Sequence record: PQ478073.1 | Source: a phage | Strand: one strand, 5' to 3' | DNA: 64,000 nucleotides | Shown: positions 4,497 through 8,564 of the stretch, piece after piece | Numbering within the stretch: the first letter of the stretch is position 1 | How the letters are laid out: each line of letters starts with the position of its first letter | Translations under genes and position numbers: made by a program | The notes under the pieces: model-generated | Database searches by the model: none | Told to the model about the DNA's origin: nothing | What the model saw: only the letters and a program-made list of their open reading frames with translations

Positions 4497-4824
4497 AGGT
4501 TCAAATCAATATAAATGTATTGCAGAGATCAGGAAGAAAGATGGAACACTTGTAGACCGAGCATTGAAGCAAGAATATAAAGAATTACGTGATGTGGTAC
4601 ATAATGATAGTTATGGTGGGATGCGTCGTCAAAAAATTTATGAATATCTAAAGAAAGGTTTAGAAATTCAGGTTAATGGTCTTCATTGCATTCAAACAAA
4701 AAACGATCCTGATATTCTACGTTTGTTGAAAGAAGATAAGATTGAAATGTTTAATGTTCCTATTTCATTCTATGGTAATAAACTAAAATGTAAGCATACT
4801 TTCTTGAGGATTAAAAATGGTTGA
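4474..4824 (+). CDS. hypothetical protein (116 aa), basic
   Basis: ORF track; overlaps upstream gene end. Confidence 0.45.
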   Translation: MRYNMALRGSNQYKCIAEIRKKDGTLVDRALKQEYKELRDVVHNDSYGGMRRQKIYEYLKKGLEIQVNGLHCIQTKNDPDILRLLKEDKIEMFNVPISFYGNKLKCKHTFLRIKNG

Positions 4825-5041
4825 TTCATTTATGAAAAAAATCTTTAAAAAATTACTATCTGGATTTGAAAAAGCAGTAAGTCTTATTTTCAGTTCAGTT
4901 GTAATGGTTATTACAGTACTGGTGTTTTCTCTAGTACTGCATTTTGTACCATTCTGGTTAATCTTTATTGTACTTATTGCTCTGCTAGGTGCACATGTTT
5001 ATTATGTTTACCGTGACGCATTGGATGATGATAACGATTAA
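4817..5041 (+). CDS. small membrane protein, holin-like topology (74 aa)
   Basis: GAGGA SD 6 nt before ATG; two predicted hydrophobic helices (VSLIFSSVVMVITVLVFSLVL, FWLIFIVLIALLGAHVYYVY) and acidic C-terminus DALDDDND. Confidence 0.45.
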   Translation: MVDSFMKKIFKKLLSGFEKAVSLIFSSVVMVITVLVFSLVLHFVPFWLIFIVLIALLGAHVYYVYRDALDDDND

Positions 5042-5049
5042 ATGTATTT

Positions 5050-5074
5050 GACCTCACTATGTGGGGTCTTTTTT
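5050..5074 (+). terminator. rho-independent terminator
   Basis: gacctcac / tat / gtggggtc hairpin (one mismatch) followed by tttttt. Confidence 0.5.
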
Positions 5075-5086
5075 AAGGAAAATTAT

Positions 5087-5539
5087 ATGCTTATAGAAAC
5101 AGAAACATTTAAGCGTTTTATTGACGTATGTCGTGATACGTGTTTTTGTTATCTTTCATCACAAGAACAGTTCGATGCAATGAGTGATGTGTTAGGTTAT
5201 CGCCGTTCGGTATTGATGTATTTTGATGGTCCTTTGATTGAAGTTCATGATGATGTGTATTCCCTACAATATGTATCAATTAACAATGCGTTCATTTTTA
5301 TTGCTGACTCGTACTCAATTGTAGTTGAGGAACGTGGTAAAGGTATACCAACAACACACTATATTGATTGTCAAAGAACTGATTGTGTTTATAGTTCTGG
5401 ACTAATACAAACACCAATTCCATATCCTAGCATTTATATAAACACACTCCATCAAGAAATTATTGAGTACTGTAATAGTATTTCTGATACAGATACACAG
5501 TATTTTCCTATTGTATTATTGAAAGGAGTTAGAACATGA
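5087..5539 (+). CDS. hypothetical protein (150 aa)
   Basis: ORF track frame; start placed at ATG 5087 downstream of terminator with aagga SD. Confidence 0.5.
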   Translation: MLIETETFKRFIDVCRDTCFCYLSSQEQFDAMSDVLGYRRSVLMYFDGPLIEVHDDVYSLQYVSINNAFIFIADSYSIVVEERGKGIPTTHYIDCQRTDCVYSSGLIQTPIPYPSIYINTLHQEIIEYCNSISDTDTQYFPIVLLKGVRT

Positions 5540-5925
5540 GATGGCGTAAACGACACGTAAAAAGATTTGATAAAATAATCAAAAAATATTACTCACATAA
5601 GTTAGATCCAATCATACTTCAACTAAGAAGTAGTATGTTTGATAGACGTTTTCCACAGTGTTTAGAATCGTACAGTCGTAAACGTTACAAGAATGAATAC
5701 CTGGTATATCGTTATGATTTATCAGAATTCTTTTTGAATACTCGTGTATCTGTACCCATCAGACTGTACTCAAGGGTAAAACGAAGTAGGGTTCAAGATA
5801 TTACATATGGATATCTTATGATTGAAATCGACGACCTGAATGAAAAAACTGGCAGAAATTACAGTACTTTATGTCTGGAAAACCATGATTCAATAAAAAG
5901 AATCATAGAAGAGTTGGGAAAGTGA
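5536..5925 (+). CDS. hypothetical protein (129 aa), basic
   Basis: ORF track; start overlaps upstream stop (ATGA). Confidence 0.5.
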   Translation: MRWRKRHVKRFDKIIKKYYSHKLDPIILQLRSSMFDRRFPQCLESYSRKRYKNEYLVYRYDLSEFFLNTRVSVPIRLYSRVKRSRVQDITYGYLMIEIDDLNEKTGRNYSTLCLENHDSIKRIIEELGK

Positions 5926-5954
5926 GATTTTTAGTGCTATAATTGGAGATGAGT

Positions 5955-6299
5955 ATGAAATACATCGATAAAGGTACAGTGGAGACACAGTACTGGAATA
6001 TCCATATTGCTGGTGATATTCAAACAGCAAGAGAATACACAAGAAAATTTGCGTTTAAGCATGGCTTTTGTGTACAATTAATTCCCTGTGAATATATCTA
6101 CACTGGTGGTCTTGAAAGTGGGATGTGTGCTCGTATTATTCAGTACCCACGCTTTCCAAAAGAAGAAGTATATCTCAACCGAGATGTATTAAACTATGCA
6201 AAGGGTTTAGCTGAAGAGTTGTGTCAAAAGAGCTTTACTATAGAGCGAAATAATGATACAATTTATTATGAAAGTGATGAACCTTTACACAAGAAATAA
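5955..6299 (+). CDS. hypothetical protein (114 aa)
   Basis: ORF track frame; ATG 5955 six nt after GGAG. Confidence 0.5.
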   Translation: MKYIDKGTVETQYWNIHIAGDIQTAREYTRKFAFKHGFCVQLIPCEYIYTGGLESGMCARIIQYPRFPKEEVYLNRDVLNYAKGLAEELCQKSFTIERNNDTIYYESDEPLHKK

Positions 6300-6310
6300 A
6301 AGGAAAATAT

Positions 6311-6442
6311 ATGAATGGACTAAAGAAATTTGGTAAAGATTTTCTAAAATGCATACGCTACACATATGATGCAAATCCAGAAATGACTGCCATTGTGGGT
6401 GTGTTTATTACACTCGTTGTATTAAGCTTTATTGTGGTGTAA
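6311..6442 (+). CDS. small hydrophobic protein (43 aa)
   Basis: Below ORF-track cutoff; aaggaaa SD, ATG, C-terminal hydrophobic stretch AIVGVFITLVVLSFIVV; fills gap between neighbours. Confidence 0.35.
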   Translation: MNGLKKFGKDFLKCIRYTYDANPEMTAIVGVFITLVVLSFIVV

Positions 6443-6445
6443 AAT

Positions 6446-6649
6446 ATGATTGAAATTAATGCTGATATATATTGTAGTGCATCACCCAATTACTTCATTT
6501 ATGCACTAAGTACATTTGGTGAAACTGAAGGTGAAACTTTTGTTTTAGTAGAGAATACTACATGGTTCAAAACAAGTAATAAAATTCCGAAAGATGTTTT
6601 GGAAACATATGTTCGTATTGAAAATAAAAACATATATGTAATTTTATAG
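6446..6649 (+). CDS. hypothetical protein (67 aa)
   Basis: ORF track. Confidence 0.4.
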   Translation: MIEINADIYCSASPNYFIYALSTFGETEGETFVLVENTTWFKTSNKIPKDVLETYVRIENKNIYVIL

Positions 6650-6656
6650 GTAACAT

Positions 6657-7067
6657 ATGATTGAAATGGAAGGAACTCTGGTGTATGATCCAGATCGTGG
6701 CACTATGAAAAAGAAGAAGGACTTCTGGTTAGTACTACAACTTCCATTACAGTTGGTTCGATACTACCAGTACTTCATCAGAACTGACTTACATATTGAT
6801 ATTAAAGACCCACAATGGGGAGCACATGTCAGTATCGTTCGTGGTGAAGTGCCACCAAATCCAGAGTACTGGAAAAAGTACGATGGAATGAAAGTAAAGA
6901 TAAAGTTCAATCCTTGTATTGAGATAGTAAAAGATAAAAAGAATCCAGGTTCATTCTTTATCATTGAATTTGAAGATGATTTCATCACACATATTAGAAA
7001 TGAACTAGGACTACCAACCAAGTACTTTAAATATCACATCACTGTAGGTAGAACTTACTACGATTAA
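6657..7067 (+). CDS. 2H phosphoesterase superfamily protein (136 aa)
   Basis: Two H-x-[TS]-x motifs with hydrophobic fourth residue (AHVSIV and YHITVG) about 70 residues apart, the hallmark of the LigT/2H fold. Confidence 0.55.
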   Translation: MIEMEGTLVYDPDRGTMKKKKDFWLVLQLPLQLVRYYQYFIRTDLHIDIKDPQWGAHVSIVRGEVPPNPEYWKKYDGMKVKIKFNPCIEIVKDKKNPGSFFIIEFEDDFITHIRNELGLPTKYFKYHITVGRTYYD

Positions 7068-7235
7068 TGTGGTTTTTACAGTAAATATGTCTTGTAATAA
7101 AATAAAAATATGCTATACTACTTAAACATTTGAAAAGAACGTTTTTGTACTGTAGAAAGTCCGATGAGGCTTTTGCAAATGGCCTCTTTGCCATCTTTGT
7201 GATTGCCCATCTTAACAATCAACAAAGGAGGCGTT

Positions 7236-8162
7236 TTGAAACAAGCGAAAAAAGCACTGAAAACTAAGACTACTTATGGTGTTCTAGTTTGCACAGTACT
7301 TGTCGCTGCGATTGGATTTTATGGTTTTTCTCAAAATGATCGTGTATCATCATCGGACGAAAGTCAGGTACACAATTTAAAACCACAAGTTACGCAAATT
7401 CAAAAGCAGGAATTACCAAAGGTAGAAATATCAAAGGATGTTCCACGCGGCGAGAAGCATTATACGGTTCAACCTGGTGATAGTTATTATTCTATTGCTA
7501 AAAAGTTTAAACCTAAAAATGTACAACTTGAAGAGTATGTTATTTTGTTGAAAAATATCAATTTAAATGCTACTCTTCATACTTCTCAGGGTATCTTTAT
7601 CCCAACAAAAGAGGATTTGAAGAACGTATTGTTACCAGATGTGACTGTACTGTTTGATTATAATGATCCAGAAATTGTCAATCACATCAAAGAAGCTGAA
7701 GGTTCAATTGAATTTCAGTCCAAGAACAAACGCCGTTTACTTGGTGGGAAAGTCGGAGTTCCTTTCCACAATTCTAAATTTCATCCCTACAAGGACATGA
7801 AAGGTAATTATACAATAGGTTATGGGCATTATTTGGGTAGAAAAGAATCTGATGCGATTAAGTACAGAAACGGTATTACCAAAGCTCAAGCCAATAAACT
7901 TTTAATGCAAGATATGAAAAGAACATATAATGACTTTTTATTATTGATGCAGAAAAAAGAAGCAGTAAATCTGACCAAAGAACAACAACGTATTCTTTAT
8001 GAAATGTCCTATACAATGGGTGTTGATAAATTAGCAACGTTTAATAAACTTTGGAAAAGTGTGAAAAATGATAACCCTAAGAAATTTAAAAAAGAAATTA
8101 TGAATTCCTTATGGTATCGTCAAGTTACAAACCGAGCAGATTTGTTGTTAAGTTCACTCTAA
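7236..8162 (+). CDS. membrane-anchored LysM + T4-lysozyme-family (GH24-like) protein
   Basis: Perfect SD aaaggagg then TTG 7236 (ORF track starts 7203); N-terminal hydrophobic helix VLVCTVLVAAIGFYGF; LysM-like YTVQPGDSYYSIAKKF; lysozyme motifs YKDMKGNYTIGYGH, GITKAQANKLLMQDM, SLWYRQVTNRADLL parallel T4 lysozyme. Confidence 0.7.
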   Translation: MKQAKKALKTKTTYGVLVCTVLVAAIGFYGFSQNDRVSSSDESQVHNLKPQVTQIQKQELPKVEISKDVPRGEKHYTVQPGDSYYSIAKKFKPKNVQLEEYVILLKNINLNATLHTSQGIFIPTKEDLKNVLLPDVTVLFDYNDPEIVNHIKEAEGSIEFQSKNKRRLLGGKVGVPFHNSKFHPYKDMKGNYTIGYGHYLGRKESDAIKYRNGITKAQANKLLMQDMKRTYNDFLLLMQKKEAVNLTKEQQRILYEMSYTMGVDKLATFNKLWKSVKNDNPKKFKKEIMNSLWYRQVTNRADLLLSSL

Positions 8163-8178
8163 AAAAGGAAGGTGAAGT

Positions 8179-8511
8179 ATGCTAAATCTAAATATTCAAG
8201 GCAACGTTGATATCACTCCAGCAATCCAAGATGCTATTTACAATGAAGCAAAAAGTCTGGATAAGTACCGTACTTCTTCAGTACTAGACATTGGTGTTCA
8301 TGTTAAGAAAGAGCATAAAACTCAATATGCTGTAACTTTAACTGCTGGTAGTAAATCAGTAACTGCTGATGATGCTGATTTGTATAAAGCAATTGTTGAA
8401 TCTTTTGATAAGATGGAAACTGTATTCAGTAAAGACAAAAGCATTAAATTACACCGCAGAAACCATCCAGAACACCCAGTTCTTGATGATTTGACAGAAA
8501 ACGAAGAGTAA
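8179..8511 (+). CDS. hypothetical protein (110 aa)
   Basis: ORF track; aaggaaggtg SD. Confidence 0.5.
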   Translation: MLNLNIQGNVDITPAIQDAIYNEAKSLDKYRTSSVLDIGVHVKKEHKTQYAVTLTAGSKSVTADDADLYKAIVESFDKMETVFSKDKSIKLHRRNHPEHPVLDDLTENEE

Positions 8512-8521
8512 TATATACTAA

Positions 8522-8550
8522 AGGGACAGATTAATTCTGTCCCTTTTCTT
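8522..8550 (+). terminator. rho-independent terminator
   Basis: agggacaga / ttaat / tctgtccct hairpin followed by tttctt. Confidence 0.7.
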
Positions 8551-8564
8551 ATGGAGTTTTAATT

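What the first reader, a model, noticed from the sequence alone, without database searches (positions are those of the whole stretch)
7236..8162. Membrane-anchored LysM + GH24 lysozyme-fold protein with His at the catalytic Glu position
Domain order is N-terminal hydrophobic anchor, LysM-like segment, then a T4-lysozyme-family domain. By eye alignment to T4 lysozyme (E11-x8-D20-x5-T26), the D and T are conserved (YKDMKGNYT) but the residue aligned with the catalytic Glu is His (FHNSKFHPYKD) and there is no acidic residue nearby. This could be a signal-anchor-release type endolysin with a variant active site, or a non-catalytic peptidoglycan-binding structural protein. A holin-like gene (4817-5041) lies 2 kb upstream, not adjacent.
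Basis: partly seen in the sequence, partly recalled or inferred. Interest (0 to 1): 0.45.

Follow-up and report, generated by a model that had tools for sequence, protein, structure and literature searches.

The report
Membrane-anchored phage lysozyme, active site intact
This is the already-described membrane-anchored LysM-lysozyme of Rak2-like jumbo coliphages; its catalytic glutamate is present but pushed 23 residues upstream by a conserved loop, so the "His instead of Glu" active site is an alignment artefact and the gene is ordinary.

Summary
The gene at 7236-8162 (+) is real: 308 aa, TTG start behind AAGGAGG. The window is an Asteriusvirus jumbo coliphage. The protein is 100% identical over the aligned 96% to slurp01 and 99.7% to 121Q gp532. 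Public records annotate it as lysozyme or LysM protein.

The key claim fails. His178 sits at the Glu position only if T4 lysozyme is aligned without gaps, and it is variable (His in 5 of 34 family members, Lys in 19). An invariant Glu155-Gly156 (IKEAEGS) lies 31 residues before Asp187. In a 42-sequence GH24 alignment it falls in the column of T4 lysozyme Glu11 (42/42 Glu, then 42/42 Gly). Asp187 and Thr193 match Asp20 and Thr26. So the triad is intact as E-x31-D-x5-T.

A related E-x21-D spacing occurs in the phage's hub lysozyme and in its 162-aa soluble lysozyme. A near-identical homolog of the soluble one (LysUE1) has published lytic activity.

Buttimer et al. 2017 already described this architecture for orthologs, proposed a signal-arrest-release endolysin, and reported toxicity on induction. 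The phAPEC6 ortholog was not found in virions. Most likely it is a Sec-exported, membrane-anchored active muramidase. Whether it is released or stays tethered is unresolved. Low interest.

The parts
7092..7119 (+). Sigma-70-like promoter candidate, TTGTAA-16 nt-TG-n-TATACT (extended -10). An overlapping candidate lies at 7075-7103.
   Evidence: Consensus scan only. Similar TGnTATAAT elements recur in other intergenic regions of the window. Function is not shown.
7167..7194 (+). Hairpin region in the 168-nt upstream spacer, followed by T-rich sequence. It could be a leaky terminator of the upstream gene or a 5'UTR structure.
   Evidence: Terminator-like hit at 7179-7194. An RNA fold of 7120-7245 gives z = -2.6 and pairs the Shine-Dalgarno region. 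This is weak evidence.
7225..7231 (+). Shine-Dalgarno sequence AAGGAGG, 4 nt before the TTG start.
   Evidence: Read directly from the sequence. The AAGGAG core is conserved in phAPEC6, RaK2 and pEa_SNUABM_49.
7236..8162 (+). CDS of 308 aa plus stop: membrane-anchored LysM-GH24 lysozyme, ortholog of 121Q gp532, phAPEC6 gp293c and CBB_187.
   Evidence: (phrog_15410, E = 3e-173, full length).
7272..7328 (+). Residues 13-31, TYGVLVCTVLVAAIGFYGF: a single N-terminal transmembrane or signal-anchor segment. The Lys-rich N-terminus would be cytoplasmic, giving an N-in/C-out topology.
   Evidence: Best 19-residue Kyte-Doolittle window scores 1.86. The segment is conserved in all 34 homologs, with A24, G27 and G30 nearly invariant. 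Hydrophobicity is marginal.
7332..7451 (+). Residues 33-72: low-complexity, predicted disordered linker with an invariant I55 followed by Q56-K57 (IQKQ) motif.
   Evidence: pLDDT is below 50 for residues 1-72.
7452..7610 (+). Residues 73-125: LysM-type peptidoglycan-binding domain.
7662..8159 (+). Residues 143-308: GH24 (T4-lysozyme fold) catalytic domain.
7698..7703 (+). Codons for Glu155-Gly156, the catalytic-Glu motif equivalent to T4L Glu11-Gly12.
   Evidence: Invariant in 34/34 family members. Same column as T4L E11/G12 in 42/42 sequences. Aligns to KEYEG of hub lysozyme gp241.
7713..7781 (+). Residues 160-182: a 23-residue insertion relative to T4L between the Glu and the Asp. It contains the conserved basic loop K165-R166-R167-L168-L169-G170-G171.
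   Evidence: MAFFT gap placement. Q161, R166, L168 and G171 are invariant. Model pLDDT is 85-90.
7767..7769 (+). It is a variable, non-homologous position inside the insertion.
   Evidence: His 5, Lys 19, Arg 4, Ser 3 and others 3 of 34.
7794..7814 (+). Asp187 through Thr193 (D-x5-T), equivalent to T4L Asp20 and Thr26.
   Evidence: Invariant in the family. In the 42-sequence alignment the Asp column is 37 D and 5 C, and the Thr column is 42/42 T.
8179..8511 (+). Downstream gene for a 110-aa ribosome hibernation factor (RaiA/HPF, S30AE) homolog, 16 nt after the lysozyme stop. It is probably co-transcribed. It is a conserved neighbour, not shown to be functionally linked.
   Evidence: PF02482, E = 3.3e-10. 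The same lysozyme-then-S30AE pair occurs in three relatives whose GH24 domain is 42-46% identical.

Best explanation
The gene encodes a catalytically competent GH24 muramidase. It is inserted into the inner membrane as a type II (N-in/C-out) signal-anchor protein. About 40 disordered residues, a LysM peptidoglycan-binding module and the lysozyme domain would lie in the periplasm. The catalytic triad is Glu155, Asp187 and Thr193. The Glu sits at the end of the first helix of the domain, as in T4 lysozyme, but a conserved 23-residue insertion separates it from the Asp (E-x31-D-x5-T instead of E-x8-D-x5-T). Because it carries its own export signal, it would reach the cell wall without a holin-made hole. 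Its most likely role is a Sec-dependent, signal-anchor type endolysin or lysis-assisting muramidase of Rak2-like jumbo phages, held in check by the membrane tether until the membrane is de-energised.

Shown here: the domain architecture, fold, triad conservation and homology.

Taken from papers: absence from virions, toxicity of the ortholog on induction, and activity of a paralog type with an extended E-to-D spacing.

Inferred: topology, Sec export, enzymatic activity of this protein, timing, and whether it is released from the membrane.
For: Architecture and fold.

Triad. E155, G156, D187 and T193 are invariant in 34/34 homologs down to 45% identity. E155 falls in the T4L E11 column, which is 42/42 Glu and is followed by 42/42 Gly, in an alignment spanning the E-x8, x13/14, x21 and x30/31 spacing classes. 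BLASTP aligns KEAEG to KEYEG of the virion hub lysozyme gp241 with a single 10-residue gap. The model places helix 145-152 just before E155, like T4L helix A before E11.

Extended spacing is compatible with activity. phAPEC6 gp242 has E-x21-D spacing and starts MSKWEIK and ends RIVESV, as the LysUE1 primers encode. LysUE1 was purified and lysed E. coli (PMC12805682).

Topology. The N-terminus is Lys-rich, the hydrophobic segment is 18-19 residues, and the C-flank is acidic. Distant members P0080, P0082 and P0083 carry an 80-95 residue N-terminal extension before the hydrophobic segment, which argues for an uncleaved anchor rather than a signal peptide.

Not a virion protein. phAPEC6 Gp293 was not detected by virion MS, whereas Gp241 was (PMC7247149).

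Published view. CBB_187, 121Q gp532 and GAP32 gp180 were predicted as a TM-LysM-lysozyme endolysin, possibly signal-arrest-release, that inhibited growth on induction (PMC5259590).
Against: No enzymatic or topological data exist for this protein, and the toxicity report is 'data not shown'.

The phage also has a soluble 162-aa lysozyme in the baseplate gene block. A near-identical homolog of it is active, so that protein could be the real endolysin.

The gene lies among nucleotide and translation-related genes (2H phosphoesterase-like, HPF, CCA-adding enzyme, Nudix, glutaredoxin). It sits behind sigma-70-like promoter candidates, not in a recognisable lysis cassette. No holin, pinholin or spanin family is matched by its neighbours.

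The regulatory couplings known for SAR endolysins cannot apply. No Cys is conserved, and the catalytic Glu is about 120 residues from the anchor.
Confidence: 0.6

Rival explanations
1. A permanently tethered, LysM-guided muramidase with a non-lytic or auxiliary role. It would be made early or mid infection together with the downstream hibernation-factor homolog. It would remodel or locally thin the sacculus (for example to accommodate the swollen infected cell, or for a superinfection-related function). The soluble 162-aa lysozyme would be the true endolysin.
For: The gene is in a non-structural, non-lysis block with conserved synteny: 2H-like, then lysozyme, then S30AE, then CCA enzyme, then Nudix. 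Sigma-70-like extended -10 promoter candidates lie upstream. A separate soluble lysozyme exists, and a near-identical homolog of it has shown activity. Many family members have clearly hydrophobic anchors, with Hessa sums down to -2.5. Some relatives have a cytoplasmic N-terminal domain before the anchor. The SAR-style regulatory features are absent.
Against: There are no expression data, and promoter calls are consensus matches below the shuffle expectation (7 found against 9.8 expected). An active periplasmic muramidase made early would be hazardous, and the ortholog was reported toxic on induction. In this phage the anchor is only marginally hydrophobic (+1.1), in the range of the SAR controls.
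Confidence: 0.25
2. One reading: a GH24-fold protein whose catalytic Glu is replaced by His. It would be either a variant catalytic mechanism or a non-catalytic peptidoglycan-binding protein.
For: Counting 9 residues back from Asp187 without gaps lands on His178. Standard local profile alignments (Pfam, phmmer against PDB, hhalign) all start after the insertion, so they do not display the Glu.
Against: His178 is His in 5/34 homologs and mostly Lys; His183 is Tyr in 31/34. E155-G156 is invariant and homologous to T4L E11-G12. The rest of the active-site motif is under the same strict conservation.
Confidence: 0.03
3. A virion-associated (ejection or tail) peptidoglycan hydrolase that acts at entry.
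For: The best PHROG and PDB matches outside its own family are lysozyme domains of baseplate hub and internal virion proteins. The GH24 domain is related to the C-terminal domain of hub protein gp241.
Against: It was not detected in the phAPEC6 virion proteome, while gp241 was. It has no structural (gp5 OB-fold or spike) domain. It has an N-terminal membrane anchor and lies outside the structural modules.
Confidence: 0.03

Closest known systems
CBB_187 / 121Q gp532 / GAP32 gp180 / phAPEC6 gp293c / RaK2 'e' (RaK2_00029): the predicted endolysin of Rak2-like jumbo phages (Buttimer et al. 2017, PMC5259590)
   Same: It is the same gene. It is 99.7% identical to 121Q gp532 and 100% to slurp01 over the aligned 96% of the protein, and 48.8% to RaK2. 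It has the same TM-LysM-lysozyme architecture and the same genomic neighbourhood.
   Different: Nothing substantive differs. The displaced catalytic Glu and the E-x31-D spacing were not pointed out in the passages I read.
T4 lysozyme (gene e product; GH24, E11-D20-T26)
   Different: T4L is soluble, cytoplasmic and holin-dependent, with no LysM, and its spacing is E-x8-D. Here there are a membrane anchor, a LysM domain and a 23-residue insertion between the Glu and the Asp.
GH24 lysozymes with E-x21-D spacing: phAPEC6 gp242 / LysUE1 (162 aa, soluble) and the C-terminal domain of hub protein gp241 (887 aa)
   Same: They share the motif EG[ST]xxYQ...(Y/F)(R/K)NxKF..YxDxxGxxTIGYGH. About 13 of the 23 inserted residues are shared. 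LysUE1 has published muralytic activity.
   Different: The anchored family has 10 more residues (the K-R-R-L-L-G-G-K loop), plus the TM segment and LysM. gp241 is a virion protein.
Signal-arrest-release (SAR) endolysins: P1 Lyz, P21 R, phiKMV gp45
   Same: Both are N-terminal membrane-embedded GH24-type lysozymes exported without a holin. In this phage the anchor is only marginally hydrophobic, comparable with SAR controls in a crude scale.
   Different: In SAR endolysins the SAR helix directly abuts and regulates the catalytic domain, by disulfide caging in P1 Lyz or by refolding in P21 R (from my own knowledge of the Young-lab work). Here about 120 residues, including a LysM domain, intervene and no Cys is conserved. 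The Gly/Ala/Ser/Thr content is lower, 0.32-0.47 against 0.53-0.63. No pinholin was recognised nearby.
KZ144 / EL188-type modular endolysins of Gram-negative jumbo phages
   Same: Both are jumbo-phage lysins that combine a peptidoglycan-binding module with a catalytic domain, which is unusual for Gram-negative hosts (noted in PMC5259590).
   Different: Those carry a different binding domain, a lytic transglycosylase catalytic domain and no membrane anchor.

Membership tests
GH24 / Phage_lysozyme (PF00959) | Profile match above the curated threshold | tested here: met
   45.1 bits against a cutoff of 22.3, residues 182-289. hhalign probability 97.7% to T4L.
GH24 / Phage_lysozyme (PF00959) | T4-lysozyme two-lobe fold | tested here: met
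GH24 / Phage_lysozyme (PF00959) | Catalytic Glu (T4L E11) followed by Gly at the end of the first helix | tested here: met
   E155-G156 is invariant in 34/34 members. Same column as T4L E11-G12, 42/42. A 3D superposition was not possible with these tools.
GH24 / Phage_lysozyme (PF00959) | Asp/Cys and Thr of the triad (T4L D20, T26), D/C-x5-T | tested here: met
   D187 and T193 are invariant. Alignment columns are 37 D + 5 C, and 42/42 T.
GH24 / Phage_lysozyme (PF00959) | Canonical E-x8-D/C spacing | tested here: not met
   The spacing is E-x31-D. Among the 148 representative hits scanned, about 82 have x8, about 23 have x21, 10 have x30/31 and 6 have x13/14. The spacing is a common pattern rather than a requirement: a protein type with x21 spacing is reported active.
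GH24 / Phage_lysozyme (PF00959) | Muramidase activity | not testable with these tools
   Evidence is only indirect: ortholog toxicity (data not shown) and activity of LysUE1, a homolog of the phage's soluble paralog.
LysM (PF01476) | Profile match and beta-alpha-alpha-beta fold | tested here: met
LysM (PF01476) | Binding to peptidoglycan | not testable with these tools
SAR (signal-arrest-release) endolysin | N-terminal TM segment that is weakly hydrophobic and rich in Gly/Ala/Ser/Thr | tested here: inconclusive
   The Hessa-scale sum is +1.1 for this protein. The family ranges from -2.5 to +5.1, with mean +0.3. SAR controls give +0.5 to +2.2 and LepB TM1 gives -3.2. The small-residue fraction is 0.37 against 0.53-0.63 in P21 and P1.
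SAR (signal-arrest-release) endolysin | Anchor directly coupled to the catalytic domain (Cys-disulfide caging or refolding that completes the active site) | tested here: not met
   The catalytic Glu is about 120 residues from the anchor, with a disordered linker and LysM between them. No Cys is conserved in the family.
SAR (signal-arrest-release) endolysin | Release from the membrane on depolarisation; partner pinholin or holin | not testable with these tools
   Release needs experiments. None of ten neighbouring ORFs matches a holin family, which does not exclude an unrecognised one.
Virion-associated (tail or ejection) lysozyme | Present in purified virions; fused to a structural domain | tested here: not met
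   Gp293 was not detected in the phAPEC6 virion MS, while Gp241 was (PMC7247149). No structural domain was found.

The most novel reading that the evidence does not exclude
The protein is not the endolysin. It is a permanently membrane-tethered, LysM-targeted muramidase, co-transcribed with a ribosome-hibernation-factor homolog from a host-type promoter, and it acts before lysis. Possible roles are controlled thinning or remodelling of the sacculus in cells producing very large virions, or a superinfection-related function. The 10-residue basic loop unique to the anchored class (K165-R166-R167-L168-L169-G170-G171-K172) would serve as a regulatory or substrate-selecting element.
Probability: 0.15. 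Interest if true: 0.5.

Novelty: already known. Interest (0 to 1): 0.13.

Why it matters
Its importance is mostly as a correction. The apparent His-for-Glu active site would have been an unusual lysozyme chemistry, but it is an artefact of aligning by eye across a 23-residue insertion.

Two practical points follow:
- GH24 domains fall into discrete Glu-to-Asp spacing classes (x8, x13/14, x21, x30/31). Local profile alignments (Pfam, phmmer, hhalign) stop short of the Glu in the long-spacing classes. Automated or by-eye active-site checks can therefore wrongly flag these enzymes as inactive.
- Rak2-like jumbo phages carry three GH24 paralogs: a virion hub protein, a soluble 162-aa protein and a membrane-anchored LysM protein. 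The division of labour between the two non-virion ones is still untested. This is a modest open question about lysis in jumbo phages.

Tried and rejected
1. Local profile methods to place the Glu. Pfam, phmmer against PDB and hhalign against T4L all begin at T4L residue 15-16, just after the insertion. They neither confirm nor refute the Glu. The question was resolved with the family alignment, BLASTP to paralog gp241, the representative search and a 42-sequence L-INS-i alignment.

3. A solved structure of an E-x21-D or E-x31-D enzyme. None appeared by sequence search; the nearest matches are T4L variants.

4. Other GH24 genes in the window. None was found by tblastn or by a LysUE1 primer search. 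The paralogs lie elsewhere in the genome.

5. T4-type late promoter TATAAATA. There are zero occurrences in the window, so it gives no timing information for this gene. Sigma-70 scan hits are no more frequent than in shuffles.

6. Lysis-cassette context. Ten neighbouring ORFs match no holin or spanin family. Contigs of distant relatives show the same metabolic-type synteny and no lysis genes. P0085, a TM-GH24 with x21 spacing and no LysM, has an uninformative context.

7. SAR versus stable anchor from hydrophobicity. The result was ambiguous.

8. Cleavable signal peptide or lipoprotein. I considered and rejected both. The hydrophobic region is 18-19 residues, the -1 and -3 positions are not conserved as small residues, there is no lipobox, and some relatives have long N-terminal extensions.

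9. Literature on expression timing in Rak2-like phages. I found none.

Full report
**What is there**

The ORF list shows one long + strand frame over the finding, 7203-8162. It lies 4 nt after AAGGAGG (7225-7231). It corresponds to the annotated start of phAPEC6 gp293c, which is 927 nt, and to the N-termini of 33 homologs, M-x-K-A-I-Q-E-L-K-T. The product is 308 aa.

The window itself is an Asteriusvirus jumbo coliphage. Positions 5000-12000 are 97-99% identical to SP27, phAPEC6, slurp01 and 121Q. By tblastn the protein is 100% identical to slurp01 and 99.7% to 121Q gene 532, in both cases over the aligned residues 14-308. It is about 49-63% identical to Erwinia and Klebsiella Rak2-like phages. 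Those records annotate it as 'lysozyme', 'LysM peptidoglycan-binding domain-containing protein' or 'hypothetical protein'.

**Checking the observation: domain order**

The domain order is confirmed.
- Residues 13-31 form the only strongly hydrophobic segment. A Lys-rich stretch precedes it and an acidic stretch follows it.
- Pfam gives LysM at 22.5 bits against a cutoff of 20.9, covering only the first 17 profile positions. It gives Phage_lysozyme at 45.1 bits against a cutoff of 22.3, at residues 182-289.
- PHROGs gives a full-length match to phrog_15410 (unknown function, E = 3e-173), plus weaker matches to lysozyme domains of hub, endolysin and internal-virion families.
- An AlphaFold2 model built on the 34-sequence alignment is confident from residue 73 to the C-terminus and disordered for residues 1-72. 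It shows a beta-alpha-alpha-beta LysM unit at 75-121 and an alpha-rich lysozyme domain.
- Relatives with 41-44% identity in the GH24 domain give full-length LysM profile matches.

**Checking the observation: the active site**

This is where the finding fails.

Counting nine residues back from Asp187 does land on His178. But His178 is His in only 5 of 34 family members (Lys 19, Arg 4, Ser 3). The neighbouring His183 is Tyr in 31 of 34.

In contrast, Glu155-Gly156 in the motif I-K-E-A-E-G-S is invariant in 34/34. It directly follows the model's helix 145-152, as Glu11-Gly12 follows helix A in T4 lysozyme.

BLASTP against the phage's own virion hub lysozyme (phAPEC6 gp241) aligns IKEAEGSIEFQ with LKEYEGTLQYQ and needs only one 10-residue gap before the YxD motif.

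An exhaustive phmmer search of 1.84 billion representatives with residues 135-308 gave 1318 hits. I scanned the listed best hits other than the two already held (148 proteins) for the distance between the EG motif and the D/C-x5-T motif. They fall into discrete classes:
- about 82 with x8, the canonical spacing as in T4L;
- about 23 with x21, covering soluble proteins of about 150-230 aa and hub-type or other large proteins of 657-984 aa;
- 10 with x30/31, all 289-405 aa;
- 6 with x13/14.

A MAFFT L-INS-i alignment of 42 domains from all classes plus T4L puts window Glu155 in the T4L Glu11 column (42/42 Glu). The next column is 42/42 Gly. Asp187 falls with Asp20 (37 Asp, 5 Cys) and Thr193 with Thr26 (42/42).

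The triad is therefore intact as E-x31-D-x5-T, with a 23-residue insertion at residues 160-182. The insertion is itself conserved: Q161, R166, L168 and G171 are invariant, and K165, L169, G170 and G174 are nearly so.

The usual local alignments (Pfam, phmmer against PDB, hhalign) all start just after the insertion, at T4L residue 15-16. This explains why the Glu is easy to miss.

**Is the long spacing compatible with catalysis?**

phAPEC6 gp242 is a 162-aa protein encoded just after the hub lysozyme gene. Its sequence begins MSKWEIKNTDEQFFKEIKEFEGTIAYQKKLGYFKNDKFWVYKDSLGLDTIGYGH, which is an E-x21-D spacing. Its termini match the primers used to clone LysUE1 of phage UE-S1. LysUE1 was purified and lysed E. 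coli in turbidity and CFU assays (PMC12805682). So at least the x21 class is enzymatically active. The x31 class is x21 plus ten residues in the same loop. I found no solved structure of an x21 or x31 enzyme by sequence search.

**What it most likely does**

Topology is inferred from the positive-inside pattern and the 18-19 residue hydrophobic core. The prediction is N-in/C-out, with the linker, LysM and GH24 in the periplasm.

A cleaved signal peptide is unlikely. The -1 and -3 positions after the hydrophobic core are not conserved as small residues. Three distant members carry 80-95 residues before the hydrophobic segment.

Virion mass spectrometry of phAPEC6 found the hub lysozyme Gp241 but not Gp293, the ortholog of this gene (PMC7247149).

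Buttimer et al. 2017 described exactly this architecture for CBB_187, with homologs in GAP32, 121Q (gp532) and RaK2. They predicted it to be the endolysin and pointed to signal-arrest-release endolysins. They reported that induction inhibited E. coli growth, as data not shown (PMC5259590).

My best explanation is therefore a Sec-exported, membrane-anchored, catalytically competent LysM-GH24 muramidase that serves as a holin-independent endolysin or lysis-assisting enzyme. I put confidence in that functional statement at about 0.6. Confidence that the triad is intact is much higher.

**What remains open**

Whether the anchor is a releasable SAR domain or a stable tether could not be decided. 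On a simple Hessa-scale sum this protein's segment scores +1.1. The family ranges from -2.5 to +5.1. SAR controls score +0.5 to +2.2 and LepB TM1 scores -3.2.

The regulatory couplings known for SAR endolysins cannot apply. No Cys is conserved, and the Glu is about 120 residues from the membrane segment.

The gene is not in a lysis cassette. Its neighbours are a weak 2H-phosphoesterase-like gene, a RaiA/HPF (S30AE) homolog, a CCA-adding enzyme, a Nudix hydrolase and a glutaredoxin. This block is conserved in RaK2, in Erwinia phages and in a metagenomic relative whose GH24 domain is 44% identical. None of ten neighbouring ORFs hits a holin or spanin family.

Sigma-70-like promoter candidates sit upstream, including an extended -10 at 7092-7119, but such hits are not enriched over shuffles.

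Because a soluble lysozyme with an active near-identical homolog also exists, a non-endolysin role for the anchored enzyme cannot be excluded. I give about 0.25 to a stable-tether auxiliary role and 0.15 to the more specific novel reading.

**Comparison with known families and novelty**

It is a member of GH24 by profile, fold and triad. It departs only in the Glu-to-Asp spacing, which is a frequent pattern rather than a requirement. It carries a LysM domain.

It works like a signal-anchor endolysin, but it does not meet the structural hallmark of characterised SAR endolysins, in which the anchor is fused directly to the catalytic domain and regulates it. It is not a virion lysin.

The identical gene is in many public genomes, and its architecture and proposed role are in print. 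I therefore rate it 'already known'. The only small addition is the explicit placement of the catalytic Glu and the recognition of the spacing classes. Interest is low (0.13).

Noticed in passing
window 8179-8511 (+); also L005:1237-1566 and L006:8908-9246: A 110-aa ribosome hibernation factor homolog (RaiA/HPF, PF02482, E = 3.3e-10) starts 16 nt after the lysozyme stop. The same lysozyme-then-S30AE pair, with gaps of 11-23 nt, occurs in three metagenomic relatives whose GH24 domain is only 42-46% identical. It is a phage-encoded hibernation factor that is probably co-transcribed with a periplasmic muramidase.
   Followed up: partly
whole window, both strands: The T4 late-promoter core TATAAATA occurs 0 times in 64 kb, against 10.2 +/- 3.1 expected from shuffles. 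The phage group nevertheless encodes a gp55-like late sigma factor (phAPEC6 gp237c). Upstream of probable late genes (15897, 19737, 32771-, 53629-) I see AATAAATA/TAAATAA-like strings instead.
   Followed up: partly
window 7120-7245 (+): The presumed 5' leader of the lysozyme gene folds more stably than shuffles (-32.4 kcal/mol, z = -2.6, 2 of 200 shuffles as good). The Shine-Dalgarno region is paired with an upstream U-rich stretch, and an internal hairpin followed by T-rich sequence lies at about 7167-7194. This could be translational control, an attenuator, or just the terminator of the upstream gene.
   Followed up: partly
window 7398-7406 (residues 55-57): I55 is invariant, and Q56 and K57 are nearly invariant (the IQKQ motif). 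They sit inside an otherwise variable, predicted-disordered linker between the membrane anchor and LysM. The meaning is unknown.
   Followed up: no
window 7728-7751 (residues 165-172): The basic loop K-R-R-L-L-G-G-K is nearly invariant and specific to the anchored E-x30/31-D class of GH24. It is absent from the E-x21-D paralogs of the same phage.
   Followed up: partly
window 6657-7067 (+): The upstream 136-aa ORF has a sub-threshold match to the 2H phosphoesterase 'Swiss Army Knife' domain (PF22547, 25.6 bits against a cutoff of 27). The same weak hit precedes the lysozyme gene in the distant relative L006.
   Followed up: no
window 4817-5041 (+): This 74-aa ORF has two adjacent hydrophobic segments and a strongly acidic C-terminus (RDALDDDND). 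It matches no holin family, only phrog_22328 of unknown function. The acidic tail is atypical for holins.
   Followed up: partly
window upstream of 11332, 14888, 30290 and 51283: Extended -10 elements of the form TGnTATAAT recur in intergenic regions. They are likely the host-RNA-polymerase (early) promoter type of this phage.
   Followed up: no
L002:9410-12598 (phAPEC6, outside the window): The 887-aa hub lysozyme gene (gp241) is followed immediately by the 162-aa soluble lysozyme gene (gp242, LysUE1 type) and then by a gp25-like gene. The two lysozyme domains share the E-x21-D insertion, which suggests duplication of the catalytic domain within the baseplate module.
   Followed up: partly
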